IMG/VR virus record: IMGVR_UViG_2617270964_000005
Origin: a virus
Taxonomy: Duplodnaviria > Heunggongvirae > Uroviricota > Caudoviricetes
Length of the DNA: 10,990 nucleotides
Reading direction: 5' to 3' (one strand)
Shown piece by piece: positions 1-10,990 of the stretch (position 1 is its first letter; every line of letters begins with the position of its first letter). Position numbers and translations under genes: made by a program. The notes under the pieces were generated by a model. It searched no databases and was not told the DNA's origin. It saw only the letters and a program-made list of their open reading frames with translations.

Positions 1-344
1 TGTATGCGCGAGGTTACCGACTGCGGCCTGAGTTTTTTAAATGGCGGAAAATCGTGTTGAGGCCAACGCCCATAATGCGGGCGGTTGCCCGGCATCCAAC
101 GCCATTCATGGCCATATCAATGATTTTCTGGTGCGTACCGGGTTGAGAAGCGGTGTAAGTGAACTGCAGTTGCCATGTTTTACGGCAGTGAGAGCAGAGA
201 TAGCGCTGATGTCCGGCGGTGCTTTTGCCGTTACGCACCACCCCGTCAGTAGCTGAACAGGAGGGACAGCTGATAGAAACAGAAGCCACTGGAGCACCTC
301 AAAAACACCATCATACACTAAATCAGTAAGTTGGCATCATCACC
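1..344 (-). mobile_element. IS1 insertion sequence, partial (left ~344 bp including the terminal inverted repeat; remainder lies beyond the window start)
   Basis: Reverse complement of 1..344 matches the IS1 left end as recalled, including the terminal repeat GGTGATG(A)TGCCAACTTACTGAT at 322..344 (one mismatch to the canonical end) and the full insA reading frame. IS1 is about 768 bp, so insB and the other end are outside the window. Confidence 0.9.
14..289 (-). CDS. insA: IS1 InsA protein (transposition regulator, N-terminal part of the InsAB' transposase)
   Basis: 91-aa product [91 protein letters not shown] is essentially identical to IS1 InsA as recalled (zinc-finger CxxC...CxxC motif, 91 aa). 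Confidence 0.92.
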
Positions 345-738
345 ACATCTCGTATGTAATGGAATAAGTCAGATCTGCAGAACTCCATAACGCCATATCG
401 TCATCACGACGATACTCATAGCCCTGCGTAACCATCGTGGTAATCAGTCCTGCCAGTGCCGGGATCGCGGTCATCGCCGGGTAAATCCGGCTTTCCATCC
501 ACTGATCAAGCTCTGAATCCGGTACCTGTGCCGGTAAAAACACCTCAATATGCAGCGTGGCCCGCCAGGTATCTGCATCCAGCTCTTCACCGGTATACTC
601 TGCATCCGTCAGATAAACCGCGATCGCAGGAAAATCCTCTTCGTCAAAAACAACGGGGCGACCATCAAACAGCGTCGCCCCGTGTTCATGCTGCTCGAGT
701 GCATCCAGCACTGCGGCACGAATGTCAGTGTGTTTCAT
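340..738 (-). CDS. U: Tail tube terminator protein, lambda gpU homolog (132 aa); the last sense codon and the stop codon are supplied across the IS1 junction
   Basis: Translation MKHTDIRAAVLDALEQHEHGATLFDGRPVVFDEEDFPAIAVYLTDAEYTGEELDADTWRATLHIEVFLPAQVPDSELDQWMESRIYP... aligns along its length with lambda U (131 aa) as recalled. ATG at 736..738. Overlaps the Z stop in an ATGA arrangement, as in lambda. Confidence 0.85.
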   Translation of the reverse strand: MKHTDIRAAVLDALEQHEHGATLFDGRPVVFDEEDFPAIAVYLTDAEYTGEELDADTWRATLHIEVFLPAQVPDSELDQWMESRIYPAMTAIPALAGLITTMVTQGYEYRRDDDMALWSSADLTYSITYEMW

Positions 739-1310
739 CGTTTTATCGCAATCCTCAGTTGTTGTTTCAGCGCGGATGCCAGTTCTCCGGGCAGGCGTTC
801 ACGCCGGATACGGTCAACATTCTCATCAAATGCCTGTTTCAGTGGGGCCGCCATCGGGATTTTCACCACCTGAATGGGAAGGCGATTACGCTTTTTCCTT
901 CCCTTGTCGTCATTGCCCTCCTCATATCTGGCCTGGGGAAGACGTTGCATAACATGCCAGCGCCCATTATTTAATCGCTGGATAAATGCCCGCTGATAAC
1001 GATGCTGACCGGCTTTGAGTATGCTGTTCGGACGACGCCCCAGCATTCTGATCCCCAGCTTAATCACAGGGAGATCACCGCGGTTAACGATAATTCTGGC
1101 ATTCGGATTTCTGACCGTCGCCCGTTTCAGTCTGGACCGTTCCTTTACCAGTTTCCGTCTCACCCTGGTTTCCCGGGCAACCTGTGACGAAGACTGATTA
1201 ATCGCCGTTGTGGCCACGCGGTTAATGGTCATTGCAGAAGCAGCCGGAATGGCGTTTTTACGAACCCGGCTCAGATTATCAATCGCCTGATCAAGCCCTT
1301 TTATCGCCAT
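735..1310 (-). CDS. Z: Tail completion protein, lambda gpZ homolog (191 aa)
   Basis: 191 aa versus 192 aa for lambda Z; basic Arg/Lys-rich protein in the lambda position between FII and U. ATG at 1308..1310 with a GGGTGA Shine-Dalgarno-like sequence upstream. Confidence 0.8.
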   Translation of the reverse strand: MAIKGLDQAIDNLSRVRKNAIPAASAMTINRVATTAINQSSSQVARETRVRRKLVKERSRLKRATVRNPNARIIVNRGDLPVIKLGIRMLGRRPNSILKAGQHRYQRAFIQRLNNGRWHVMQRLPQARYEEGNDDKGRKKRNRLPIQVVKIPMAAPLKQAFDENVDRIRRERLPGELASALKQQLRIAIKR

Positions 1311-1325
1311 AATTTCACCCTGCGT

Positions 1326-1679
1326 TTATCGTCGCCGGTTAACAGCGGGTGGTTGCCCACGGTTGAGCCAGAGATAACAGCTTCCCCCGTCATCCGGAGA
1401 AACACGATCCACCCAGAACATCTCGCCGTTAATGGTCAGCGTGTCACCACGCCGCACGGCACGCACCGTATCCGTCCGCACAAATAATGACGGGCTGCTT
1501 CCTTCAATACGGACCCCGCCACCGGCAAAACCCAGCGACTCCGGATCGTCAAAAACCCCCTGAACTTCGCCGCCACGTTGTGCTCCGGAGGTGAACTGCG
1601 CACGGATCCCCATCACTTCAACGATCGTACTGTCCACCCCGGCAAGGGCAGCATCAAAGGCATTCTGAAAATCACGCAT
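1326..1679 (-). CDS. FII: Head-tail connector / tail attachment protein, lambda gpFII homolog (117 aa)
   Basis: Product ends ...TLTINGEMFWVDRVSPDDGGSCYLWLNRGQPPAVNRRR, near-identical to the lambda FII C-terminus as recalled (...FWVDRVSPDDGGSCHLWLGRGVPPAVNRRR). Same length as lambda FII. Confidence 0.9.
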   Translation of the reverse strand: MRDFQNAFDAALAGVDSTIVEVMGIRAQFTSGAQRGGEVQGVFDDPESLGFAGGGVRIEGSSPSLFVRTDTVRAVRRGDTLTINGEMFWVDRVSPDDGGSCYLWLNRGQPPAVNRRR

Positions 1680-2055
1680 ATTCAGCCGTTCCGTGCTGTA
1701 TCATGGCCGTTGCCAGTGATGATGGCACCAGAACACGCATACCCCGTAACGCCAGCTCAACGGGACGACCTGTCTCCGGGCAATACCCCATTACTTGCAG
1801 GCACTTCCGTACCCGGACGGCTTTAACATCATCCGGAGCATCCGTGTTGTTCAACTGCTCACCATCGTCTGTGTGATTTTGATCAGCCCCGCTCTCATCA
1901 GAGTGCATAATGCCCTCCGGGGAAACAGCAAGCTCCTCTTCCCACTCAGACACACGTTGAGCAATATCCGCAGCACTCCCCGACATATCCGCCTCGCGCC
2001 CCAGCAGGCCAGCCAGTTGACGAAGACGATTCAGATTTTCTTCTTTTGTTGCCAT
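1672..2055 (-). CDS. FI: DNA-packaging / head assembly protein, lambda gpFI-like (127 aa from the ATG at 2055)
   Basis: Acidic protein in the lambda FI position between E and FII. ATG at 2053..2055 is preceded by a strong AGGAGG Shine-Dalgarno with a 5-nt spacer. The track ORF start at 2103 is a GTG lying inside the terminator hairpin and is unlikely to be used. Similarity to lambda FI is weaker than for the neighbouring genes. Confidence 0.65.
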   Translation of the reverse strand: MATKEENLNRLRQLAGLLGREADMSGSAADIAQRVSEWEEELAVSPEGIMHSDESGADQNHTDDGEQLNNTDAPDDVKAVRVRKCLQVMGYCPETGRPVELALRGMRVLVPSSLATAMIQHGTAEYA

Positions 2056-2067
2056 CTCAGCCTCCTG

Positions 2068-2098
2068 TGAAAAAAGACACGGGGGCATTTCGCCCCCG
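2068..2098 (-). terminator. Candidate intrinsic terminator or RNA-stabilising hairpin between the major capsid gene and FI (minus-strand transcript)
   Basis: Perfect 7-bp GC stem (CGGGGGC at 2080..2086 pairing GCCCCCG at 2092..2098) with a 5-nt loop; the minus-strand RNA then reads UGUCUUUUUU, immediately followed by the FI Shine-Dalgarno. No T-tract follows on the plus strand. Confidence 0.5.
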
Positions 2099-2106
2099 CT
2101 CACGGA

Positions 2107-3135
2107 TTATTTCACCTGCACCACCACAAACTCATCCGGATCCGGCAGCACCATCAGCGGTGCGGACTGCGTCATGGTGAATTCACGGGCCGGATCGCCC
2201 ACAGTCAGCCAGTGTTTCGGATAACGGGAAGAGGCCACCACACCTTCGGACAACGCCTGCGCATCCTGAATGGCACCATAGCAACGAATGCCCTCTGCTG
2301 CCGTATTCCCCAGGACCAGTGTGCCCTCCGGCAGATAACGTTTTTCGGTACCGTCGTCTGCCACATAAGACGTTTTCGCCACCACAATGGCCAGATCACC
2401 GTAATACCCTTTGAAAGACACCACCGCCCCCAGGTCTTTCACTGCCGTTTCGAGTTGTGAATTTGAGCCGCGACGGGTATCCAGTTTTTCGCGGAACAGC
2501 TTAAAGCCATTCAGCAGACGCCAAACCGTACCGTCCATAATGGCAATATTCACAAGACCGCTGGCCTGATCGCAGTAAAGGTCAATATCATGCGTCGGAT
2601 CAAACGTATCACGGTCCTGCTCAGACCATTTTTTACCGTCGGCCTGCTCAATGTTATTTCCTTCAGAGCGTCCGAAATCCACCTCGACCGTGTCAAACTG
2701 TTCCCCTTCCATGGTGTATTTGCCATACAGCACGGCATTCACCGCCTGCATTTCTTCCACCTGGACAATAGCGTGCTCTTCCTGTTTGAGGTTATCGGTA
2801 ATGATACGCAGACGACGGTAGGCCGGGTCGTTCAGCTGAGCCGGATCTTCACCGGGAAGGCGCTCAACCGCCTGCTGGTAATTAAATTCGTGTTTCGGCT
2901 TGACGTAGCCCGGACGCAACACGCGGGTTTCACCACCACGATGGCGCAGCACTTTTCCTTCAACGATCGGGGAGACATAGGCCGCCACCGGCGTTTTTCC
3001 GGTAATTTTGTCCAGCATCACCTCTTCGGTGTGGAAATTCACCGTACGGCGGAAAAACAGCTCCAGAAATAGCGCACGGAATTTAACTTTTTGTTCGGTA
3101 TAACCGAGTAACTGGCGGGTCGTAAACAATCCCAT
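2107..3135 (-). CDS. E: Major capsid protein, lambda gpE homolog (342 aa)
   Basis: 342 aa versus 341 for lambda E, in the lambda gene order directly after D. ATG at 3133..3135 with an AAAGGA Shine-Dalgarno. Confidence 0.92.
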   Translation of the reverse strand: MGLFTTRQLLGYTEQKVKFRALFLELFFRRTVNFHTEEVMLDKITGKTPVAAYVSPIVEGKVLRHRGGETRVLRPGYVKPKHEFNYQQAVERLPGEDPAQLNDPAYRRLRIITDNLKQEEHAIVQVEEMQAVNAVLYGKYTMEGEQFDTVEVDFGRSEGNNIEQADGKKWSEQDRDTFDPTHDIDLYCDQASGLVNIAIMDGTVWRLLNGFKLFREKLDTRRGSNSQLETAVKDLGAVVSFKGYYGDLAIVVAKTSYVADDGTEKRYLPEGTLVLGNTAAEGIRCYGAIQDAQALSEGVVASSRYPKHWLTVGDPAREFTMTQSAPLMVLPDPDEFVVVQVK

Positions 3136-3163
3136 AAATCAGTTCCTTTCATTCAGAAATCAG

Positions 3164-3185
3164 TCAGGCCACCATGGTGGCCTGA
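3164..3185. repeat. Perfect 22-bp palindrome TCAGGCCACCATGGTGGCCTGA in the D-E intergenic region
   Basis: Read directly from the sequence; self-complementary over the full 22 bp, centred on CCATGG, located between the D stop (3193) and the E start (3135). Confidence 0.6.
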
Positions 3186-3192
3186 TAACGTG

Positions 3193-3540
3193 TTACGGCA
3201 GAGCCGCGTGACTCAGGGCTGTGCCGGCAAAGGCATTTGCCTTTTTGTGTTCATCCACACTGTCAGGCCAGCGGATTGCCTCCGTCGCAAAGGTCCCCGA
3301 CTTGTAATAGGTCAGCACCGTCTCTGTGCCTTCAAGCGGCAGTACCAGTATGCCAACCGCACTACCGGCTTTCTGTCCATCCCAGACCACCAGTTTCCCG
3401 GTGGCTTCATCCAGCATCAGGGGCGTCAGAGCCGGTGTTGCAGAAGAAATCCCGCTGCTGCCTGTGGCGGTATGAGCCGGATCATTACCGGCAAAAATAC
3501 GTACTTCCGCACGCTGTTCAGTGATGGTTTTCGTCACCAT
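3193..3540 (-). CDS. D: Head decoration protein, lambda gpD homolog (115 aa)
   Basis: Contains ...DPAHTAT...TPLMLDE...KLVVWDG...AVGIL...YKSGTF...AFAGTA..., matching conserved blocks of lambda D as recalled. 115 aa versus 110. Confidence 0.88.
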   Translation of the reverse strand: MVTKTITEQRAEVRIFAGNDPAHTATGSSGISSATPALTPLMLDEATGKLVVWDGQKAGSAVGILVLPLEGTETVLTYYKSGTFATEAIRWPDSVDEHKKANAFAGTALSHAALP

Positions 3541-3576
3541 TTTGTTAAAACCTCATATTGATGGTCAGCACTGACT

Positions 3577-5082
3577 TCATGGCATGGCCATGAGCATTTT
3601 CACGTCCGCATCACCGTCTGCTGACGTCTGTGACACGCCACCCCGCACCGCTGCCGGTGAATGATTCGCCATGAAATGTTCAAACAGGGCGGTTGTGGAT
3701 GCAGAGACCGGTTCGGCCTTACCTGATCCCGCAGCCAGCACAGCCCGGGCGTTCTCCACGGTCATTCCCGGGCAGGCCGCCAGTTTTTCAGCCTGCGCTT
3801 CTGCCCCTTTTGCCTCATCCAGGGCCATGATCTGATCACGAAGTGAGGGCCCGGCATCCGCCAGTGGTGCAGCCGCCAGGATCGGGCGGGCTTTTTCCAC
3901 CGTCATCTCCGGCATCGCCGCCAGCGTTGCCGCCAGTTGTTCACGACCGTTCGCTTCTTCACACGCCATAATGCGATCGGCTTCACTCTGCGCGGATGCC
4001 ACCGGCTGCTGCGGTGCCGCCGCGGCCAGAATCGCCCGGGCCTGTTCAACGCTCATGCCCTGTTGCCCTGCCAGCATCGTGGCAAGCTGTTCACGTCCTT
4101 TCGCTTCCTGGCATGTCAGGATCCCCATCACTCGCTGGTTCTCCTGCACGGCGGCTTCCGTTGCAGTTAATTGCGGCATAGTGCCTCCTCTGACATTACT
4201 GTTCAGCGCCGTGGCCATCACACTGATGGCATCCGACGCATTGATTAATTCATCCGCCAGCCCGGCCTCAATGCCGGACTGACCTTCAAAAACGGCGGCC
4301 TCTGTTCCCGTGACTGCATCAACAGACAGACCGGTAAACATCGCCACTTTTTCGGCAAACATCCGGCGCGCCGCATCAATCCGCTGCTGCATGTCCTGGC
4401 GAACCTCTGCCGGCAACGCTTCAAACTGATTGCCATCCACCTTGTGCGCCCCTGAGTAAATCAGCGTGATATCCACACCGGCCTGCGCCAGATGACCGGC
4501 ATAGCTGACATGGCTCATCATCACGCCAATGGAGCCGATACGGGATGTCTGGGTAACCAGCCGTCGGGAGCAGGCAGACGCCAGCAGCATGGCTGCAGAA
4601 CAGGCCGTGTCATTGCACAGTGCCCAGACCGGCTTCTGCTGACGGAGGCGGTAAATCATGTCAGCGCAGTCAAACGCGCCGGCGGCCTGCCCGCCCGGAC
4701 TGTCAATGTCCAGCAGTACGCCCCGCACCTGGCTATCCGCCATTGCCTGCTGAAGACAGGCGACAATGCCGTCATAGCCTGTCATTCCGGAAAATGGCCG
4801 CATACCACCCAGCCGGTGCACCAGCGTGCCGGTCACCGGCAGTACAGCAATACCGTTCACCACCCGGTAAACACGGGCCGGTCGTTTACCTCCGGCCATA
4901 TACTCGTCCGTTTCAGCCAGCATTCCGGGAGCATCAAGCTGTACCTGCTGTTGTGGTACCGAAAGACTTGCTGCCCCCATCTCGCGCCCGAGCGCGCAAA
5001 AGAAAACCCGCGCATAGGCGGGCTCCAGAAGCAGCGGTTCATTGAATGCTGCGGCAATAATGTGTGAAAGATTACGTCTCAC
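3577..5082 (-). CDS. C: Head maturation protease / scaffold, lambda gpC homolog (S49/ClpP-like peptidase domain with a Nu3-like scaffold C-terminal region); 501 aa, GTG start
   Basis: N-terminal two thirds align with lambda C as recalled (AFNEPLLLEPAYARVFFCAL..., VNGIAVLPVTGTLV, GMTGYDGI, DSPGG, AGAFDCADMI, KPVWAL, RRLVTQTSRIGSIGVMM, ITLIYSGAHKVDGN). Longer than lambda C (439 aa) because of a repeated C-terminal motif. Start codon is GTG at 5080..5082 and overlaps the end of B. Confidence 0.88.
   Translation of the reverse strand: MRRNLSHIIAAAFNEPLLLEPAYARVFFCALGREMGAASLSVPQQQVQLDAPGMLAETDEYMAGGKRPARVYRVVNGIAVLPVTGTLVHRLGGMRPFSGMTGYDGIVACLQQAMADSQVRGVLLDIDSPGGQAAGAFDCADMIYRLRQQKPVWALCNDTACSAAMLLASACSRRLVTQTSRIGSIGVMMSHVSYAGHLAQAGVDITLIYSGAHKVDGNQFEALPAEVRQDMQQRIDAARRMFAEKVAMFTGLSVDAVTGTEAAVFEGQSGIEAGLADELINASDAISVMATALNSNVRGGTMPQLTATEAAVQENQRVMGILTCQEAKGREQLATMLAGQQGMSVEQARAILAAAAPQQPVASAQSEADRIMACEEANGREQLAATLAAMPEMTVEKARPILAAAPLADAGPSLRDQIMALDEAKGAEAQAEKLAACPGMTVENARAVLAAGSGKAEPVSASTTALFEHFMANHSPAAVRGGVSQTSADGDADVKMLMAMP
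3727..4134 (-). repeat. Three diverged tandem copies of an approximately 40-47-aa motif inside the gpC/Nu3-like scaffold region
   Basis: Protein-level repeats RVMGILTCQEAKGREQLATMLAGQQGMSVEQARAILAAAAP, RIMACEEANGREQLAATLAAMPEMTVEKARPILAAAP and QIMALDEAKGAEAQAEKLAACPGMTVENARAVLAAG. The underlying DNA copies are diverged, not identical. Confidence 0.6.
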
Positions 5083-6664
5083 GTGGTGTTGTCTCCTCTT
5101 CCGGCCTGCGACTCTCCGCTATCTGCTGCTGATACGCCTGCGCTATCCACACCGGACGTGAGAGTCCGGCTTTTTGCCGCTCAGCAGATTCCCTGACCTG
5201 CTGGCGGAAAATGTCCTGATAATCCTCGCCCATCAGCGCCAGCTCTTTCTCATACGTGCTCAGTCCGGCCTCAATGCGCATCACTGATTCCTGGACTTCC
5301 TTGAGCCCGTCAATGGCCATTCTTCCGGCACCAATCCACTCTGCCCGTGACCAGGCTGATCGCGCCTGATAAAAATCAAAACGTGCCCGTGGCGGACGAA
5401 TAATCCCCCGAAGAAGTGCCTCTTCCAGCCAGCAGGAAAACATCTGCGTGGCCAGCCGGGCCGCAATAAATTTTCGCCGCCCCATAAAATAGCGCCACGA
5501 CTCATTGGCGGAGGCGCGGGCACTTGAGTAACTGACCTTCGAGTAATCACGGGACAACTGTTCGTAGGAAACGCCAAGACCGGCGGCGATATACCGCAGC
5601 AGCGCCTGTTCAAGCGCAGAAAATCCATTGTCTGAATCCTGCGCAGTCTGTAGTTTCAGATCATCACCAGGGAAAAGGTGCGGAATTTTGACACCGCCCA
5701 GTGTCACGTTATTCGTGTCATACCAGCTGGAGAACTTCTCCAGAATATTAATAAGCGGATTATCCTTCTGCTCCTGTGGCGCGCCGGCGATATATTCAAA
5801 GGCCTTTTCGGTATCAAGTTCACTTTCAATCGTCGCTGCATACATCGCCTTCACTATGGCCGACTGAAGCTGTGTTGCCTGCAGGGAATCGAGCATCTTC
5901 AGCCGTTCCATGACGCTGTAAAACTGATTAGCCCCACGGGTCTGCCCGTCCTCCACCGGCTCGAAAATATGCAGCATGGCCGGACGCCCGGTGGGAAGTT
6001 CACGCGGGATCCGTTCCCATCGTCCACTACCAGAGAACGGAAAATCATCCTCACAGATATGGTACGCGACGGCACGGCCATATCGATCGACCTCCACACC
6101 GGCCCGCAGAAAACGGTTCCCGATACCGTGTCCTGGCGTGTCCACCCGTTTCGGACTCACGGCTTTAAAACGCGTACGAAACAGTTGCGTACTCTCCGTA
6201 TCCCAGACCGGCTGCACAAAGATTTCGCCGTTAAACGCATGAACGCCCACACCTTCACGGATAAATTCCGTAAACGTGCGTTTCCCTTCCACGTCGATCT
6301 CACCAAACATCCCTTCTGCGTATTCTGACCAGGCCGCCTCCACCTCATCGACAAAACTTTTTGCCGCGGTCTCCCGCATCCCCAGCCAGCGCCAGTTCGG
6401 ACGGTAGCTAATCAGAAACATATGCCCGACAATGTGATCCTTATGCAGGGCCACCGCATTGGCCGCTATTCCGTTATTGCGCACCAGATCATCTGCACGG
6501 GCATTCCCCAGACGCAACGCGGGCAGCAGGGCCGCATCGGCACTCTGCGCCGGTGGCAACCACTCTGCCATTTGCCCGCCAAATCCTGCACCGCCACCGG
6601 TGTAGCTGAGGCTCTCCCGAAGCGGAACGCCGTTCACATCAATCAGGACAGGCGTTCGTTTCAT
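5072..6664 (-). CDS. B: Portal protein, lambda gpB homolog (530 aa)
   Basis: Long conserved blocks shared with lambda B as recalled (GNARADDLVRNNG, HIFEPVEDGQTRGANQFYSVME, QLQSAIVKAMYAATIESELDT, LLRYIAAGLGVSYEQLSR, ARASANESW, GSGRMAIDGLKEVQE, EAGLSTYEKE). 530 aa versus 533. ATGA overlap with W. Confidence 0.93.
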   Translation of the reverse strand: MKRTPVLIDVNGVPLRESLSYTGGGAGFGGQMAEWLPPAQSADAALLPALRLGNARADDLVRNNGIAANAVALHKDHIVGHMFLISYRPNWRWLGMRETAAKSFVDEVEAAWSEYAEGMFGEIDVEGKRTFTEFIREGVGVHAFNGEIFVQPVWDTESTQLFRTRFKAVSPKRVDTPGHGIGNRFLRAGVEVDRYGRAVAYHICEDDFPFSGSGRWERIPRELPTGRPAMLHIFEPVEDGQTRGANQFYSVMERLKMLDSLQATQLQSAIVKAMYAATIESELDTEKAFEYIAGAPQEQKDNPLINILEKFSSWYDTNNVTLGGVKIPHLFPGDDLKLQTAQDSDNGFSALEQALLRYIAAGLGVSYEQLSRDYSKVSYSSARASANESWRYFMGRRKFIAARLATQMFSCWLEEALLRGIIRPPRARFDFYQARSAWSRAEWIGAGRMAIDGLKEVQESVMRIEAGLSTYEKELALMGEDYQDIFRQQVRESAERQKAGLSRPVWIAQAYQQQIAESRRPEEETTPRET

Positions 6665-6867
6665 AACCTCACTCCCAGCGGACGACGGCGACGCCGGGTT
6701 GTCCCCAGTACCGACTCCGCATCATTGATCGCCCGGTTAAGCTCATCCAGAGAAGCCGCCGTATATTCAATTCTGCGACCATCTTTCTGGACAGACACCA
6801 CCCGTTTACCGGTTAATAAATCAAGGCGCGCCTGACGCAGCGCCTGCAGTTCAGCGACTGTAACCAT
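6661..6867 (-). CDS. W: Head-tail joining / DNA stabilisation protein, lambda gpW homolog (68 aa)
   Basis: 68 aa, same length as lambda W, with the shared core LLTGKRVVSVQKDGRRIEYTAAS (lambda [22 protein letters not shown] as recalled). Sits between A and B as in lambda. Confidence 0.85.
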   Translation of the reverse strand: MVTVAELQALRQARLDLLTGKRVVSVQKDGRRIEYTAASLDELNRAINDAESVLGTTRRRRRPLGVRL

Positions 6868-8779
6868 TCACTCCTCCGGACAGCTTCGCTGCCAGTTCTT
6901 TAAGGGTTGGCCGGGTCGTCTCTTCTTCCCGGGATTTTGCCAGTACAGCCAGATCAAGCTGCCAGCGTTGCACGGACACACGTAATGCCGCGTAGGCATA
7001 CACCAGGCAGTCCAGCGCTTCGTTACGCCGCTTTTTGTTATCCCACAGCAGACGCATCTTTCCTTTTTCCCACTTCTCCACAAGCTCTTCCGCGACCAGT
7101 TGCTGCGCCTCTGTCTGCGAAAAAATCTCCGGATCATCAGGAAAACGGATGGCATACGACGTGGCTTCATCCACAGGCGTGGGATCGGCTTTCATACGGG
7201 CATAGAGAATTTCTTTTGCGGTGTCCGTCCCCACTTCACACAGATACACGCCCCGCTGATTGCGGGTTTTTGGCATGGTGATCACCGGCTTGCCATAGAC
7301 AGATGCGCCTTTTACCGGCAGCACCCGGAAAACACCGTGTTTTTTTGACCTCTGATAAACGATTTCGCCATCGATCCCCCCGATGTCCCAGCAGACACGG
7401 GAAATAGTCATTTCGGTTCCGTCTGCATGGCGGTATTTTTTGTTGATCGCCGCATCCAAACGTAACAGCGTCTCTTCCTCATCGGGACGCCCCATAATGA
7501 TGATTTTATCTACCAGAAAGGCTTCCTCTCCCGGAGCCCATCCCCAGACATACATCTCGAAACGGTTTCGCTGCGAGTCAATGCCCGCCGTCAGATAAAC
7601 CACCCGGGCAGGCACCGCCGCCGTGTAACGCACAACCTTATCCATCAGTACCTGGTGATCGAGTTTTTCGCCCACGGCCTCTTCCCAGGTCTCGCCCAGC
7701 GTGGTGTTCACAAAGGTTTTCAGGCCGTTGGGATCTTTCAGTGCATCCAGCCAGTCATAGACAATCTGTACCCAGGTGGTGAACGGACTGTACGCCGTCC
7801 AGATATGGAAAGTGATGGAACGCGGCGGCGGAATTTCATCACCCCGGGCGCTGAAAAACATCAGGCCGTCACGGGTCCACATGCCCGTGTTTTCACAGAT
7901 CCACCGCCCGTTACTCTGGTCAAGCTCAGACTGATGGATCACACAGCCATGATGCTCACAAAGGTAGAAAACACTTTCTGGTTTATTCTTCTCCCACTTA
8001 AGACCGAAAGGCGAGGCATCATCGCCAAATTTCAGATACTGCTCCTCCCCACAGTGCGGACAGGGCACATAAAAACGCATGAAGTGTGCCGACTCGTTAG
8101 CGGCTTTTTCGATCTGGCAGGAGCCTTTGATTTTAGGCGTCGAGCCGCGAATGGATTTTGGCCATACAGAGCCCTCAATACGTTTATCCCCCAGCAGGGT
8201 TGGCGAACCCTCTTTTTCAACATCCGGTTCGAACGAGGAAAGCTCGTCATAACAGACCACATCCACGGATTTTTCACGGTAGTTTTTTGCTGCCGCACCA
8301 CCCAGACACCAGAACCCCACACCGGAGGAAAAACGCTTCAGGGTGAGCGTATTATCGCGGTGTTTTCTTCCGAACCATGGAGCCAGCTCCAGCAATGCAG
8401 GAACATCCCTTATCGTTGGCTCAACATGAGATTTCATAAAATCTTCAGCAGCTGAGTCCGTGGGCTGAAAAAGAAGGCTGTTGCGTGATTTATGCTCAAT
8501 AAAATAAGCCTCCACTCCCAGCAACATCTTTGTATAACCAACACGGGCAGATTTAATCAGGTTAACCGTGCGAATCAGATCGTTGCCCATACAGTTCATG
8601 ATGCCAACCTGAAACGGCAGTGTTTCCCACCGCCCGGGGGTATAAGACGACTCTTTAGGAAGGTAATAATGTTTATTGGCCCACTGAACTGTCGTCAGTG
8701 GAACAGGAATAATGAGAGATAAAAGCCCTGTAGCTATCGCACCGGCTGCATTAGCTGCCTTCTGCGCGTCTGAAATCAT
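6851..8779 (-). CDS. A: Terminase large subunit, lambda gpA homolog (642 aa from the ATG at 8779; an upstream in-frame ATG at 8821 would give 656 aa)
   Basis: Extensive identity to lambda A as recalled ([23 protein letters not shown](T/S)[18 protein letters not shown](A/K)[92 protein letters not shown]). The 8779 start has a GGGTGG Shine-Dalgarno and gives a 29-nt overlap with Nu1, as in lambda. Confidence 0.93.
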
Positions 8780-9299
8780 CGATCCACCCGCCCACGTTTT
8801 CACCGGCCTTAGCTGCAACATTGGAGGCTTTCGCGATTTCAGTTTTCACCACATCAAGGTGTGATGGTGAAATGTCCGGATATTTACGCTGTAATGTCAA
8901 CGGCACACGCACAAGTATCCCCGAAATCTCCTGTGCCACACGTTGCAGAATGAAGGTAAACAGTTCAGTTTCCAGCACTACTCCGTCTTCACGGGCATTT
9001 TTCAGTTCCTGCGCATCTGCCTGCGCTTTTGTGAGCCGGTAGCGTTCATAGTCAATGGTGCCGGGTTGTAAATCTGACTCCGCTGCCGCACGCAAATCGT
9101 CCAGTTCTTTGCGGAGCTTTTCGTTTTCGATATCAGTTTCCCTCTGCGCATACCACTGAATTGCCATGGCAGTATCAAATACAGATTCAATGCCCTTACT
9201 ACCTTTGGAGGCGCAAGGGAGTCCCTGAGACTGCCAGCGTTCAATCGTCCGCGGGTCCACGTTGAAAATTTCGGCAAGCCTCTTTTTATTAACCTTCAT
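8751..9299 (-). CDS. nu1: Terminase small subunit, lambda gpNu1 homolog (182 aa)
   Basis: [12 protein letters not shown]...[12 protein letters not shown]...[56 protein letters not shown] aligns with lambda Nu1 as recalled (MEVNKKQLADIF...NWQEQGMP...[55 protein letters not shown]). The C-terminal 35 or so residues diverge. Confidence 0.92.
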
Positions 9300-9475
9300 G
9301 AAAACAACCCATTATCAAATACAAGGCCCGACATGAAAACGCCAGAAAAAGGCATTTTCGGACACTTTCATGTCGGACCTTTACGGATGTAATATTAAAA
9401 AAAACAAAAAGTTATATTCGAGAAGTACCGACACGATTTTCCCTGAAAAATTTTCATAAATAGTGAAAAACCGCG
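9296..9475 (-). promoter_or_regulatory. cosB-like terminase binding region containing three copies of a CATGAAA-type repeat (candidate R sites) and an AT-rich segment
   Basis: Lies between cosN and the nu1 start. CATGAAAAC occurs at 9297..9305 and 9332..9340 as direct repeats, with an inverted imperfect copy (CTTTCATGTCG) at 9365..9375. The first 45 or so bp next to cosN resemble the lambda left end as recalled. Confidence 0.5.
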
Positions 9476-9487
9476 AGGTCGCCGCCC
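9476..9487 (-). other. cosN, the 12-nt cohesive-end site (minus strand reads GGGCGGCGACCT)
   Basis: Plus strand AGGTCGCCGCCC at 9476..9487 is the exact reverse complement of the lambda 12-nt cohesive end. Flanking sequence on both sides resembles lambda as recalled (right end ...GGTCCTTTCCGG(T/C)GATCCG...GTTACG, left end CTCGCGG(G/T)TTTTC(G/A)CTATTTATGAAAATTTT). Confidence 0.85.
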
Positions 9488-9510
9488 CGTAACGGCCCGG
9501 ATCGCCGGAA

Positions 9511-9517
9511 AGGACCT
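9511..9517 (-). other. cosQ-like element (minus strand AGGTCCT versus lambda GGGTCCT as recalled)
   Basis: Position and sequence relative to cosN match the lambda cosQ region as recalled. The exact cosQ boundaries are from memory and uncertain. Confidence 0.4.
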
Positions 9518-9519
9518 GC

Positions 9520-9542
9520 AAAATGATAATGGTTATCATTTT
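9520..9542. repeat. Perfect 10-bp inverted repeat with a 3-bp spacer (AAAATGATAA tgg TTATCATTTT) immediately next to the cosQ-like element
   Basis: Read directly from the sequence. A second inverted repeat (AGTCCGGT at 9549..9556 and ACCGGACT at 9572..9579, 15-bp spacer) lies just beside it. Confidence 0.6.
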
Positions 9543-9739
9543 CAATGTAGTCCGGTTTCTTCCACCATCGCACCGGACTGGCGACTATGAGGGGACAACG
9601 CCGCGCTCCGTTAACGCGGTAAACCCCGGTGTGTATCGTTTTTGATTATCCCCGCACACTCGCGCAGAGGAGTCTCCCTGTCGGGCTGCGGTCTCTGTTA
9701 ATGAGGGAATACAGCGACGATACGGCGCATCAGCAAAAC

Positions 9740-10207
9740 TTAGTTCAGGCACTGAGTGCGGATATAGTCCTGTGCCCCTTCCAGCTGCTTCTGCATTGTC
9801 ATCAACCGTTCTCTGAGGATGAAATAATCCCGTTCAGCGGTGTCTGCCAGTCGGGGGCCGGTTGCATTATCCACGCCGGAGGTGCCGGTGGCTTCACGCA
9901 CGGTACCGGAGCAGGTGGCGTTGATCCGCAGGCGCTTACGACCAGCGGCAACATCAGCACGCAGAGTTTCATTTTCAGCTCTCGCATCGGCTAATTCCCT
10001 CGAGTATCTGGCATCAAGTTCAGCGACATCACGCTGGCGTATCTGCATATCAGTAATTGTCGCGTTCGCCAGTTTCAGCTCACTGACTTTTTTATCGCGC
10101 TGCGCTTTGTAGGTGATGGCGTTATCGCGGTAATGATTCAGCCCCAGACTAAGCACACCACAGGCTACCAGCAGGACAATAATCACCACACACAGAACAC
10201 GGTTCAT
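9740..10207 (-). CDS. Rz: Inner-membrane spanin Rz (155 aa from the ATG at 10207)
   Basis: [95 protein letters not shown]...[22 protein letters not shown] is highly similar to lambda Rz as recalled. The track ORF extends to 10291, but that extension has no similarity to Rz and overlaps a separate small ORF. Confidence 0.92.
9802..9987 (-). CDS. Rz1: Outer-membrane lipoprotein spanin Rz1, embedded in the +1 frame of Rz (61 aa)
   Basis: [61 protein letters not shown] is similar to lambda Rz1 as recalled, with a lipobox (VSAC), a Pro-rich segment and a conserved WIMQP...[11 protein letters not shown]-terminus. ATG at 9985..9987. Confidence 0.88.
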
Positions 10208-10208
10208 A

Positions 10209-10295
10209 TCACCACCAACGGATTGCCCAGACCAGAACAGCAATGGCCACAATACGAATGGCAAATGCCATTGCCCGAATAAGTTCAGCACTCAT
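10209..10295 (-). CDS. Hypothetical 28-aa hydrophobic peptide (small ORF 3); its stop lies 1 nt before the Rz ATG
   Basis: Manual translation from the ATG at 10293..10295 gives [28 protein letters not shown], then TGA at 10209..10211. Not in the ORF track (too short). Core [14 protein letters not shown] resembles RALAFAIKWVAVGIAV in small ORF 2. No obvious Shine-Dalgarno. Confidence 0.3.
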
Positions 10296-10306
10296 CTTTT
10301 TAAAGT

Positions 10307-10429
10307 TCACGATTTCAGCGCAATGACCAGTTTTGCCAGCCCATACAGCATCGGAGACACAGCAATACCAACAGCCACCCACTTAATAGCAAAAGCCAGC
10401 GCTCTGCTGATGTCATCAGTCACTGTCAC
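10307..10429 (-). CDS. Hypothetical ~40-aa hydrophobic peptide (small ORF 2), GTG start assumed
   Basis: In-frame GTG at 10427..10429 (or 10421..10423) gives VTVTDDISRALAFAIKWVAVGIAVSPMLYGLAKLVIALKS, stop TGA at 10307..10309. It is the C-terminal part of the track's 90-aa ORF 10307..10579, whose own start is a TTG and whose N-terminal part overlaps small ORF 1 in another frame. A GGGG run lies about 7 nt upstream of the GTG. Confidence 0.3.
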   Translation of the reverse strand: MTVTDDISRALAFAIKWVAVGIAVSPMLYGLAKLVIALKS

Positions 10430-10557
10430 CCCAGCAGCCCCGACGAAGACAACATCACCCAGGCGAGGGACAGAAAAAGAGCAACCAGCATTAGTGAAAA
10501 TGAAATACCGACAATCACACACAGGACCTTTGCCGGCGTTATGAGTTTGTCTGACAT
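10426..10557 (-). CDS. Hypothetical 43-aa single-pass membrane peptide (small ORF 1) resembling the N-terminal membrane anchor of Rz
   Basis: ATG at 10555..10557 preceded by a strong AAGGGG Shine-Dalgarno with a 5-nt spacer. Product MSDKLITPAKVLCVIVGISFSLMLVALFLSLAWVMLSSSGLLG, stop TGA at 10426..10428. Shares GTCCTGTGTGTG...ATTGTC and GGGGCTG DNA strings, and the peptide motif (K/R)VLCV, with the 5' end of Rz at about 10150..10200. Confidence 0.45.
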   Translation of the reverse strand: MSDKLITPAKVLCVIVGISFSLMLVALFLSLAWVMLSSSGLLG

Positions 10558-10720
10558 AGCTACCCCTTAATTGCCACAATTAACTGGGATACTACCCATA
10601 AAAAAGGGATGCTCCAGACCAGCAAAAATTTCCAGTTTGGTAATTGACTAATCATGAGTCGCAACTCCCTAATCAGTTTGCTAAAATCAATCAAGGCAGC
10701 CTCCCATAGCTTACTGCCAT

Positions 10721-10760
10721 AAAAACAAAACCCCGCTTGCTGCCAACAAACGGGGTTTTT
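10721..10760 (-). terminator. Rho-independent terminator (strongest on the minus-strand transcript; possibly bidirectional) between the endolysin gene and the small ORFs
   Basis: Minus-strand RNA: 9-bp stem CCCCGUUUG / CAAGCGGGG (one G-U pair) with a 7-nt loop, followed by UUUUGUUUUU. On the plus strand the same hairpin has one C-A mismatch and is followed by TTTTTACTTTTATT. Confidence 0.6.
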
Positions 10761-10849
10761 ACTTTTATTCACTTACATTTTGCCAGTTCGCAGGATTTCG
10801 TGTTATCCGTCCGCCTTGGCCAACGTCATTTATTAGCAAAATATTCTGC

Positions 10850-10990
10850 TTATCTGTCGATTCCCCAGCACGCCAGCGCGCTCTCCTGGTCACGACGGGA
10901 TACCTGACCGTAACAGTTATTTGAGCGAATACGGCAGTCCCTGCCACCGTCCTTAATCCACCAGCGAATCGCCTCACACGCTCCCCTGCG
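10850..10990 (-). CDS. 3' end of an endolysin gene (T4-lysozyme-like, phage 21 R / RrrD type); the 5' part lies beyond the window end
   Basis: Open frame running in from the window edge with stop TAA at 10850..10852. It encodes ...RRGACEAIRWWIKDGGRDCRIRSNNCYGQVSRRDQESALACWGIDR, which resembles the C-terminus of phage 21 / DLP12 lysozyme as recalled (...[36 protein letters not shown]). Not in the ORF track because no start codon is in the window. Confidence 0.5.
   Translation of the reverse strand, partial: RRGACEAIRWWIKDGGRDCRIRSNNCYGQVSRRDQESALACWGIDR

What the first reader, a model, noticed from the sequence alone, without database searches (positions are those of the whole stretch)
3727..4134. 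The C-terminal scaffold (Nu3-like) region of the head protease gpC carries three diverged tandem copies of a motif I recall as single-copy in lambda
Three consecutive segments share the pattern R-(I/V)-M-x-(I/L)-x-x-(Q/E)-EA-x-G-(R/A)-E-x-(L/A)-A-x-x-LA-x-x-(P/Q)-(G/E)-M-(T/S)-VE-x-AR-x-(I/V)-LAA. Lambda C, as I recall it, has one such unit (RIMGILNCEEAHGREEQARVLAETPGMTVKTARRILAAAP). This explains most of the extra length (501 versus 439 aa). The copies are diverged at the DNA level, so this is an old intragenic triplication, not a recent slippage. In lambda this region overlaps the nested scaffold gene Nu3, so the repeat number may alter scaffold valency or length and capsid assembly.
Basis: partly seen in the sequence, partly recalled or inferred. 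Interest (0 to 1): 0.5.

Follow-up and report, generated by a model that had tools for sequence, protein, structure and literature searches.

The report
Phage 21 "Tri box" scaffold repeats
The head protease/scaffold gene of this E. coli prophage really does carry three old, diverged copies of a roughly 38-residue helical module that phage lambda has once, but the repeats are already annotated as the "Tri boxes" of phage 21 genes 5 and 6, so this is a correct rediscovery rather than a new feature.

Summary
The 501-aa gpC-like ORF (window 3577-5082, minus strand) has three tandem units at aa 316-354, 369-405 and 416-452. A profile built only from the single lambda and phi80 units hits all three (i-E 9e-17 to 4e-13; best shuffle score 7.4). 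Lambda C and phi80 have one unit.

The units lie inside a nested 200-aa Nu3-like ORF (GGAGG, 4 nt, ATG at 4179). Third codon positions between units are only 32-41% identical, against 71-82% at positions 1 and 2. The three-unit layout is shared by Salmonella, Klebsiella, Lelliottia and Trabulsiella homologs.

It is not new. The gene is 97.9% identical to phage 21 gene 5, and GenBank M81255 annotates "Tri1 box", "Tri box" and "Tri3 box" ("function unknown") at these positions in nested gene 6.

Added here:
- Copy number ranges from 1 to 5 across relatives; rare E. coli alleles carry hybrid or truncated units.
- AlphaFold predicts each unit as a separate three-helix mini-domain joined by flexible linkers.
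- The units are more conserved than the linkers and tail.

The best guess for function, which is inferred and not shown, is a multivalent protein-binding module of the scaffold, most likely binding the major capsid protein.

The parts
3577..5082 (-). gpC-like head maturation protease / scaffold gene (501 aa, GTG start). It is the counterpart of phage 21 gene 5.
   Evidence: ORF. PHROG 53 head maturation protease, E 2e-228. 97.9% nt identity and equal length to phage 21 gene 5. It lies between the portal gene (5072-6664) and the decoration protein gene (3193-3540).
4204..4647 (-). Peptidase S49 (SppA/ClpP-like) domain, aa 146-293.
   Evidence: Pfam PF01343, E 1.5e-34.
4184..4188 (-). Shine-Dalgarno GGAGG, 4 nt upstream of the internal in-frame ATG.
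   Evidence: Read directly from the sequence. Lambda has AGGAGG plus 4 nt before the aligned ATG. An RBS is annotated at the same place in phage 21.
3577..4179 (-). Nested Nu3-like scaffold ORF (aa 302-501 of gpC; 200 aa, 20.5 kDa, pI 4.7). It is the counterpart of phage 21 gene 6.
   Evidence: A Met 14-17 aa upstream of the first unit is present in diverged homologs, and gene callers produced stand-alone products starting there (P0125).
4021..4137 (-). Unit R1 (aa 316-354), equivalent to Tri1 box. It is the ortholog of lambda's single unit and keeps the longer 'RVMGILxC' first helix.
   Evidence: AlphaFold2 model of this unit alone: pLDDT 85, pTM 0.60, three helices.
3979..4020 (-). Linker 1 (aa 355-368), rich in Ala, Pro, Gln and Ser. 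Low model confidence and poorly conserved.
   Evidence: pLDDT 65-67. Mean identity 0.47 with gaps in 44 diverged homologs.
3868..3978 (-). Unit R2 (aa 369-405), equivalent to Tri (Tri2) box.
   Evidence: pLDDT 80-84.
3838..3867 (-). Linker 2 (aa 406-415).
   Evidence: Mean identity 0.42. pLDDT 69.
3727..3837 (-). Unit R3 (aa 416-452), equivalent to Tri3 box. The otherwise conserved G-R-E reads G-A-E here.
3580..3726 (-). C-terminal tail (aa 453-501). It opens with a helix-1-like segment 'TTALFEHFM' and ends in 'DADVKMLMAMP'. It is the least conserved part.
   Evidence: A short DNA similarity between 3668-3682 and 3824-3838 (family D4) links the tail helix to the first helix of R3.
3929..3936 (-). 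First copy of the 8-bp direct repeat CTGGCGGC (codes L-A-A). It is one end of the 57-bp deletion that produces the 482-aa allele.
   Evidence: Alignment with E. coli STO_Bone2.
3872..3879 (-). Second copy of CTGGCGGC, the other end of the 57-bp deletion.
   Evidence: sequence read.

Best explanation
Shown:
- This is the phage 21 type of the lambdoid head protease / scaffold gene pair (21 genes 5 and 6, equivalent to lambda C and Nu3).
- Its C-terminal part is also made on its own from an internal start. In it, the one conserved module of lambda Nu3 was multiplied to three copies by an ancient in-frame tandem duplication.
- All three copies have since been kept by selection on the protein sequence.

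Predicted from the model: each copy folds on its own as a three-helix mini-domain of about 38 residues. The copies are joined by flexible Ala/Pro/Gln-rich linkers, like beads on a string.

Inferred, not shown:
- The module is the protein-binding element that ties scaffold (and the protease that carries the same C-terminus) to the inside of the assembling shell.
- The most likely partner is the major capsid protein.
- Three copies would make the 21-type scaffold multivalent, where the lambda scaffold has one module on a longer leader.
For: Identity with phage 21:
- 97.9% nt identity and equal length to phage 21 gene 5.
- The GenBank Tri1, Tri and Tri3 boxes fall on R1, R2 and R3.

One unit in lambda and phi80, three here.

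Nested start with SD at the lambda-aligned position.

Age and selection:
- Third codon positions are 0.32-0.41 identical between units, against 0.71-0.82 at positions 1 and 2.
- Units at the same position in different homologs are more alike than different units of one protein: clear for R1, weaker for R2 and R3.
- In 44 homologs below 75% identity, the units average 0.77, 0.67 and 0.61 identity without gaps. The linkers average 0.47 and 0.42, and the tail 0.27.

Structure:
- The 200-aa model has pLDDT 80-85 in each unit, 55-69 in the linkers, and pTM 0.29, so there is no fixed arrangement between units.
- R1 alone gives pLDDT 85 and pTM 0.60 with three helices.

Breadth:
- The module occurs in 317 representative proteins (E <= 1e-3) of a 1.84-billion-protein library. 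Typically there is one copy about 41 aa before the C-terminus of S49 fusions.
- Duplications arose independently in other lineages (P0168, P0268, P0225).

Isolated phages carry the three-copy form: 21, ev017, 4A7, D2, 1W, 3W, the PhiR series and Gifsy-1.

A yeast two-hybrid map of lambda reports Nu3-E, Nu3-Nu3 and Nu3-C interactions (PMC3224144).
Against: - No experiment or solved structure assigns a partner to the module. GenBank itself says 'function unknown'.
- There is no detectable relationship to the P22 scaffold coat-binding domain (hhalign probability 3.6%).
- The extreme C-terminal tail, rather than the units, could be the shell-binding element.
- An allele with a truncated R2 (482 aa) is seen on at least 1000 contigs, and two-unit alleles exist. 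Three intact units may therefore not be strictly needed, or those prophages may be defective.
- From my own knowledge, lambda and 21 both build T=7 heads, so copy number has no obvious effect on capsid size.
Confidence: 0.6

Rival explanations
1. The units are self-association (oligomerisation) modules of the scaffold, and the acidic C-terminal tail binds the shell. Three units would then give higher-order scaffold networks rather than more capsid contacts.
For: A Nu3-Nu3 interaction and dimerisation are reported for lambda (PMC3224144). The tail carries two predicted helices. A unit followed by a tail of about 41 aa is the common architecture in single-copy homologs.
Against: The tail is the least conserved region (0.27 identity), which is unexpected for the main shell contact. 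The AlphaFold model shows no confident packing between units (pTM 0.29).
Confidence: 0.2
2. The extra copies are functionally neutral padding. They would be tolerated duplications in a disordered scaffold that drift and are gained or lost without consequence.
For: Close E. coli relatives carry 2, about 2.5, 3 and 4 units, with junctions inside units. One allele arises by a 57-bp deletion between 8-bp direct repeats. The 482-aa allele is frequent.
Against: All three units are kept without gaps and are more conserved than the linkers and tail across genera, while synonymous sites are saturated. About 57 of 60 evenly sampled complete E. coli genomes have the full three-unit span as their best match. 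Isolated phages carry three units.
Confidence: 0.12
3. The 'boxes' act at the DNA or RNA level, for example as binding sites, recombination signals or translational control elements, rather than as protein modules.
For: The GenBank record lists them as repeat_region 'boxes'. A later phage 21 record marks CII-consensus pattern matches inside gene 6.
Against: Tandem Repeats Finder detects no DNA repeat, and only short direct repeats of 22 nt or less are found. Similarity is concentrated at codon positions 1 and 2 and is lost at position 3. No significant promoter-like sites were found.
Confidence: 0.03

Closest known systems
Phage 21 genes 5 and 6 (head protease / scaffold) with Tri1, Tri and Tri3 boxes, GenBank M81255.1 and OL657228.1
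   Same: Same gene length (1506 nt), 97.9% nt and 97.6% aa identity. Same nested 603-nt gene with an RBS. The three annotated repeat regions coincide with R1-R3.
   Different: There are a few substitutions, concentrated in the R2-R3 part (block identities 0.90-0.96 there, 0.99 elsewhere). The window copy sits in a prophage that is interrupted by IS1 just downstream of gene U.
Lambda C / Nu3 (NC_001416 4418-5737) and phi80 gp5
   Same: S49 protease domain, position between portal and decoration/capsid genes, nested C-terminal scaffold frame behind a strong SD, and a homologous conserved unit (54-56% identity to each window unit).
   Different: Lambda and phi80 have one unit, not three. Their leader before the unit is longer (about 50 aa against 14 aa). 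The nested product is 131 aa against 200 aa. The protease part is about 54% identical.
Four- and five-unit gpC homologs of E. coli, Citrobacter and Salmonella prophages (535-544 aa and 568-578 aa types, e.g. P0295, P0314, P0282)
   Same: Same architecture and the same unit. R1 is 82% identical to the window R1.
   Different: They have four or five units, and the downstream units are nearly identical to one another. That points to recent expansion or homogenisation rather than an old, diverged triplication.
P22 gp8 scaffolding protein, C-terminal helix-turn-helix coat-binding domain
   Same: Small helical element near the C-terminus of a scaffolding protein. It is an analogy for how a scaffold can hold coat protein (role of the P22 domain as described in 10.1101/2022.12.13.520362).
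   Different: No detectable homology (hhalign probability 3.6%). The unit here is predicted to have three helices, not two, and is repeated three times. P22 scaffold was not returned by the fold searches.
Staphylococcal protein A tandem three-helix-bundle domains

Membership tests
Lambdoid gpC/Nu3-type S49 prohead protease with nested scaffold | Peptidase S49 (SppA-like) domain in the N-terminal two thirds | tested here: met
   PF01343, E 1.5e-34, aa 146-293. PHROG 53, E 2e-228.
Lambdoid gpC/Nu3-type S49 prohead protease with nested scaffold | Gene sits between the lambda-family portal gene and the decoration (D) and major capsid (E) genes | tested here: met
   Phage_portal_2 at 5072-6664, HDPD at 3193-3540 and Phage_cap_E at 2107-3135, all on the minus strand.
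Lambdoid gpC/Nu3-type S49 prohead protease with nested scaffold | In-frame internal start with ribosome-binding site that would give a C-terminal scaffold product | tested here: met
   GGAGG, 4 nt, ATG at 4179. This aligns with lambda's AGGAGG, 4 nt, ATG at Met-309. It is annotated as gene 6 in phage 21. Actual translation from this start cannot be tested with these tools.
Lambdoid gpC/Nu3-type S49 prohead protease with nested scaffold | C-terminal conserved Nu3 unit homologous to lambda's | tested here: met
   BLASTP E 3e-17, 2e-11 and 2e-08 for the three units against the one lambda unit. The lambda/phi80-only profile hits all three.
Lambdoid gpC/Nu3-type S49 prohead protease with nested scaffold | Proteolytic activity and self-removal of scaffold during maturation | not testable with these tools
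   Needs biochemistry. Catalytic residues were not examined individually.
Phage 21 gp5/gp6 with Tri boxes | Three annotated repeat regions (Tri1, Tri, Tri3) inside nested gene 6 | tested here: met
   M81255 features 5542-5645, 5682-5792 and 5823-5936 map to window 4009-4112, 3862-3972 and 3718-3831, with near-identical peptides.
P22-type scaffold helix-turn-helix coat-binding domain | Sequence or profile homology to the gp8 C-terminal domain | tested here: not met
   hhalign probability 3.6%, with only 14 aligned columns at gp8 residues 215-228.
P22-type scaffold helix-turn-helix coat-binding domain | Direct binding to the coat protein | not testable with these tools
   No complex prediction or binding assay is available here.
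Recent slippage-type tandem DNA repeat | Head-to-tail DNA copies with high nucleotide identity | tested here: not met
   Tandem Repeats Finder finds no array with a period near 150 nt. Nucleotide identity between unit cores is 0.60-0.68, with position 3 at 0.32-0.41.

The most novel reading that the evidence does not exclude
The Nu3 unit is a self-contained capsid-protein-binding three-helix domain, and its copy number sets the scaffold-to-coat valency. That number ranges from 1 to 5 in natural lambdoid prophages and changes through in-register hybrid units. It would therefore be an evolvable control on procapsid nucleation or fidelity, and the lambda/21 pair would be a natural experiment on scaffold valency that has not been exploited since the Tri boxes were annotated as 'function unknown'.
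Probability: 0.3. Interest if true: 0.4.

Novelty: already known. Interest (0 to 1): 0.2.

Why it matters
As a finding it adds nothing new. The triplication is written into the GenBank record of the phage 21 head operon, and the gene is in about a third of complete E. coli genomes.

It is still a tidy open problem. The function of the unit has never been assigned, and no solved structure was found by sequence search of the PDB. This analysis shows that it is the most conserved part of the lambda-type scaffold. It also shows that the unit is predicted to be an autonomous three-helix domain, and that nature offers alleles with one to five copies. A simple copy-number series in phage 21 or lambda could therefore test how scaffold valency affects procapsid assembly.

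Tried and rejected
- DNA-level repeat detection gave nothing of the right period, so a recent slippage repeat or a DNA 'box' function was rejected.
- Pfam and NCBIfam have no model for the unit. The only Pfam hit was DUF7178 at E 0.06, far below its cut-off.
- phmmer of the 200-aa product against all PDB sequences gave only chance-level LacI matches (E 0.24).
- Foldseek against the PDB found nothing at E <= 0.001, either with the 200-aa model or with the single-unit model.
- hhalign against P22 gp8 was negative.
- Literature searches for Nu3, gpNu3, phage 21 and the Tri boxes found no paper in the held library that describes the repeat or its function.
- The gpNu3 biophysics paper (PMC3247018) is not held. 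I recall that the phage 21 head-gene sequence paper is Smith and Feiss, Gene 1993. That attribution rests on memory alone; no search in the held library retrieved it.
- E. coli 042 matched gene C at 100%, but its prophage differs from the window outside the head genes. It is therefore not the source.

Full report
**What is there**

The window is a lambda-type head and packaging module, all on the minus strand:

| Gene | Window coordinates |
|---|---|
| Nu1 | 8751-9299 |
| Terminase A | 6851-8821 |
| W | 6661-6867 |
| Portal | 5072-6664 |
| Protease/scaffold gene in question | 3577-5082 |
| Decoration protein | 3193-3540 |
| Major capsid protein E | 2107-3135 |
| FI | 1672-2103 |
| FII-like | 1326-1679 |
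| U | 340-738 |

The 501-aa product has a Peptidase_S49 domain at aa 146-293. It matches the PHROG head maturation protease family end to end.

**Check of the observation**

The translation shows three consecutive units:

- R1, aa 316-354: QRVMGILTCQEAKGREQLATMLAGQQGMSVEQARAILAA
- R2, aa 369-405: DRIMACEEANGREQLAATLAAMPEMTVEKARPILAAA
- R3, aa 416-452: DQIMALDEAKGAEAQAEKLAACPGMTVENARAVLAAG

These correspond to window 4021-4137, 3868-3978 and 3727-3837.

Several tests show the repeat is far beyond chance:

- Pairwise local alignment scores are 12.7-19.7 standard deviations above shuffles.
- To avoid circularity I built a profile from the lambda and phi80 units only. It hits this protein three times (i-E 8.9e-17, 2.7e-13, 3.8e-13), whereas 1000 shuffles of the C-terminal 200 aa never scored above 7.4 bits.
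- BLASTP against the lambda C-terminal product gives three HSPs that all map to the same lambda segment.

Lambda C (439 aa; identical sequence in phage O276) and phi80 (447 aa) have one unit each.

**Nested scaffold gene**

On the coding strand the sequence reads gtcaGAGGAGGcactATGccg. That is a GGAGG (4188-4184), a 4-nt spacer and an ATG at 4179.

Lambda has AGGAGGgcgaATG at the aligned codon, Met-309. From there the lambda product is 131 aa and 13.39 kDa. RefSeq lambda still annotates nu3 from Met-239, which has no Shine-Dalgarno sequence.

The product from the window's internal start is 200 aa, 20.5 kDa and acidic, with pI 4.7. Diverged homologs keep a Met 14-17 residues before the first unit.

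**It is already described**

A tblastn of the 200-aa product against phage genomes found phage 21 at 95% identity. The old GenBank record M81255 (phage 21 head gene operon) lists 'Tri1 box', 'Tri box' and 'Tri3 box' under the match. That record annotates:

- gene 5, 1506 nt;
- nested gene 6, 603 nt, with an RBS;
- three repeat_region features, each noted 'function unknown; putative'.

The window gene is 97.9% identical in DNA to gene 5 and has the same length. The three boxes project onto window 4009-4112, 3862-3972 and 3718-3831, which are R1-R3. The 2021-era record OL657228 calls the pair 'capsid protease/scaffolding protein' and 'scaffolding protein'.

The finding is therefore a correct rediscovery. 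I recall that the sequence paper is Smith and Feiss, Gene 1993. That attribution rests on memory alone; searches of the held library did not retrieve it.

**Age and selection**

The repeat cannot be seen at the DNA level. Codon-aligned unit cores are 0.71-0.82 identical at positions 1 and 2 but only 0.32-0.41 at position 3. Synonymous sites are therefore saturated while the peptide is maintained.

R1 carries the longer first helix ('RVMGILxC') also seen in lambda's unit. It is closer to R1 of other lineages (0.79-0.82) than to R2 or R3 of its own protein (0.56-0.62). R2 and R3 show the same trend more weakly.

Among 113 relatives of a diverged homolog (P0123), the unit counts were as follows:

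| Units per protein | Proteins |
|---|---|
| 2 | 2 |
| 3 | 71 |
| 4 | 38 |
| 5 | 2 |

These relatives come from Salmonella, Klebsiella, Citrobacter, Lelliottia, Trabulsiella and Escherichia.

In 44 three-unit homologs below 75% identity, conservation by region was as follows:

| Region | Mean identity to the window | Gaps |
|---|---|---|
| R1 | 0.77 | none |
| R2 | 0.67 | none |
| R3 | 0.61 | none |
| Linker 1 | 0.47 | present |
| Linker 2 | 0.42 | present |
| Tail | 0.27 | present |

The first BLASTP HSP runs past lambda's unit into 'APQSAQARSDTALDRLM', which aligns with linker 1 plus the start of R2. The window's tail also opens with a helix-1-like 'TTALFEHFM'. This fits an internal tandem duplication in which the outermost pieces keep the ancestral ends.

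**How common and how variable**

The gene is found in 2032 of 5426 complete E. coli genomes. The repeat region is found in 1870 of them.

In an even sample of 60 records, about 57 have the full three-unit span as their best match. Two have a 57-bp deletion. That deletion lies between two 8-bp CTGGCGGC direct repeats and removes half of R2. It gives the 482-aa allele, which is seen on at least 1000 contigs.

Other close alleles:

- In-register R1/R2 hybrids (451 aa, with two different junctions).
- A 472-aa form.
- A four-unit 551-aa form.

Across a 50%-clustered library of 1.84 billion proteins, the unit profile found 317 proteins at E <= 1e-3. Among the best 150, counting units with a five-unit profile that also includes lambda and phi80:

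- 130 have one unit, 15 have two and 5 have three.
- Among those of at least 380 aa, 50 have one unit, one has two and one has three.
- Independent duplications appear in unrelated short scaffold-like proteins.

Single copy is therefore the general rule. The multi-copy state marks an enterobacterial clade that happens to be very abundant.

**What the unit looks like**

AlphaFold2 on the 200-aa product, with 53 homologs, gave pLDDT 80-85 within each unit and 55-69 in the linkers. The pTM was 0.29, so there are three confident small helical domains with no defined mutual arrangement.

R1 alone gave pLDDT 85 and pTM 0.60, with helices at residues 2-11, 20-27 and 34-44 of the 47-residue segment. 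The invariant E-A-x-G-R-E and P-G-M-T motifs fall in the two inter-helix turns.

**How it most likely works**

Shown:

- Nested protease/scaffold architecture.
- An ancient triplication.
- Purifying selection on each unit.
- Variable linkers.

Predicted: independent three-helix domains.

Inferred: the unit is the scaffold's protein-binding element inside the prohead. It is shared by the protease, which carries the same C-terminus, so that the protease is co-packaged.

The most likely partner is the major capsid protein, by analogy with the small helical coat-binding elements of other scaffolds. A yeast two-hybrid study of lambda also reported Nu3-E as well as Nu3-Nu3 and Nu3-C contacts (PMC3224144). 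Three units would make the 21-type scaffold multivalent.

Rival readings are scored separately: self-association modules, neutral padding, and a DNA-level function. The last is effectively excluded by the codon-position pattern.

**Verdict**

- The novelty is nil, because the repeats are the annotated Tri boxes of phage 21.
- The residual interest is that their function is still unassigned, and that natural alleles with one to five units make it easy to test.

Noticed in passing
window 1-343 (ORF 14-289, minus strand): The left end of the window is IS1. The 91-aa ORF matches the InsA N- and C-terminal domains (E 3e-21 and 1.7e-30). No complete E. coli genome in the collection continues the prophage across position 343/344; the best match covers 344-10990. 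IS1 therefore sits immediately downstream of gene U, where the major tail gene V would be, and this prophage copy is probably defective.
   Followed up: partly
window 3872-3879 and 3929-3936; locus L006: A common 482-aa allele is this exact allele with a 57-bp in-frame deletion between two 8-bp CTGGCGGC direct repeats (coding L-A-A). The deletion removes half of unit R2. It is a microhomology deletion rather than an exchange between whole units.
   Followed up: yes
proteins P0091, P0084, P0108, P0107, P0002 (close E. coli relatives of the window protein): Rare alleles have in-register hybrid units. R1/R2 fusions at two different junctions give 451 aa, and an R3/R2 junction gives a four-unit 551-aa protein. 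This points to occasional unequal exchange between the diverged units. Several are single-contig observations and could be assembly errors.
   Followed up: partly
L007 (lambda NC_001416, 5132-5737 versus 5342-5737): RefSeq lambda annotates nu3 from Met-239 of C (201 aa, 20.8 kDa), which has no Shine-Dalgarno sequence. The AGGAGG-preceded Met-309 gives 131 aa and 13.39 kDa, and it is the position that aligns with phage 21 gene 6. The RefSeq start looks outdated.
   Followed up: partly
L003 (Escherichia phage D2, gene C at 1486-3003): The D2 protease/scaffold is a mosaic. Its first 108 or so residues are identical to lambda C, and the rest, including the three units, is of the phage 21 type. The recombination junction lies inside the gene, just before the protease core.
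   Followed up: no
proteins P0001 (657 aa) and P0274 (743 aa): Two database proteins carry large internal duplications that repeat part of the protease domain together with the repeat region. They could be real rearrangements or mis-assemblies across the repeats.
   Followed up: no
proteins P0295, P0314 and P0282 (535-544 aa and 568-578 aa types; E. coli, Citrobacter, Salmonella): A separate, abundant clade has four or five units, and the downstream units are almost identical to one another (e.g. DQIMALPEAKGREQLAQ(M/A)LA(G/E)QPGMTV(E/D)QAK). This indicates recent expansion or homogenisation, in contrast with the old, diverged triplication in the window.
   Followed up: partly
locus L008 (E. 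coli 042) compared with window 9300-10990: E. coli 042 has a gene C 100% identical to the window's but differs outside the head genes. It has V after U instead of IS1, and it has YlcI/YnfO and DUF1398 genes between Nu1 and the lysis genes that the window lacks. Head modules of this type are shuffled among prophage backbones.
   Followed up: no
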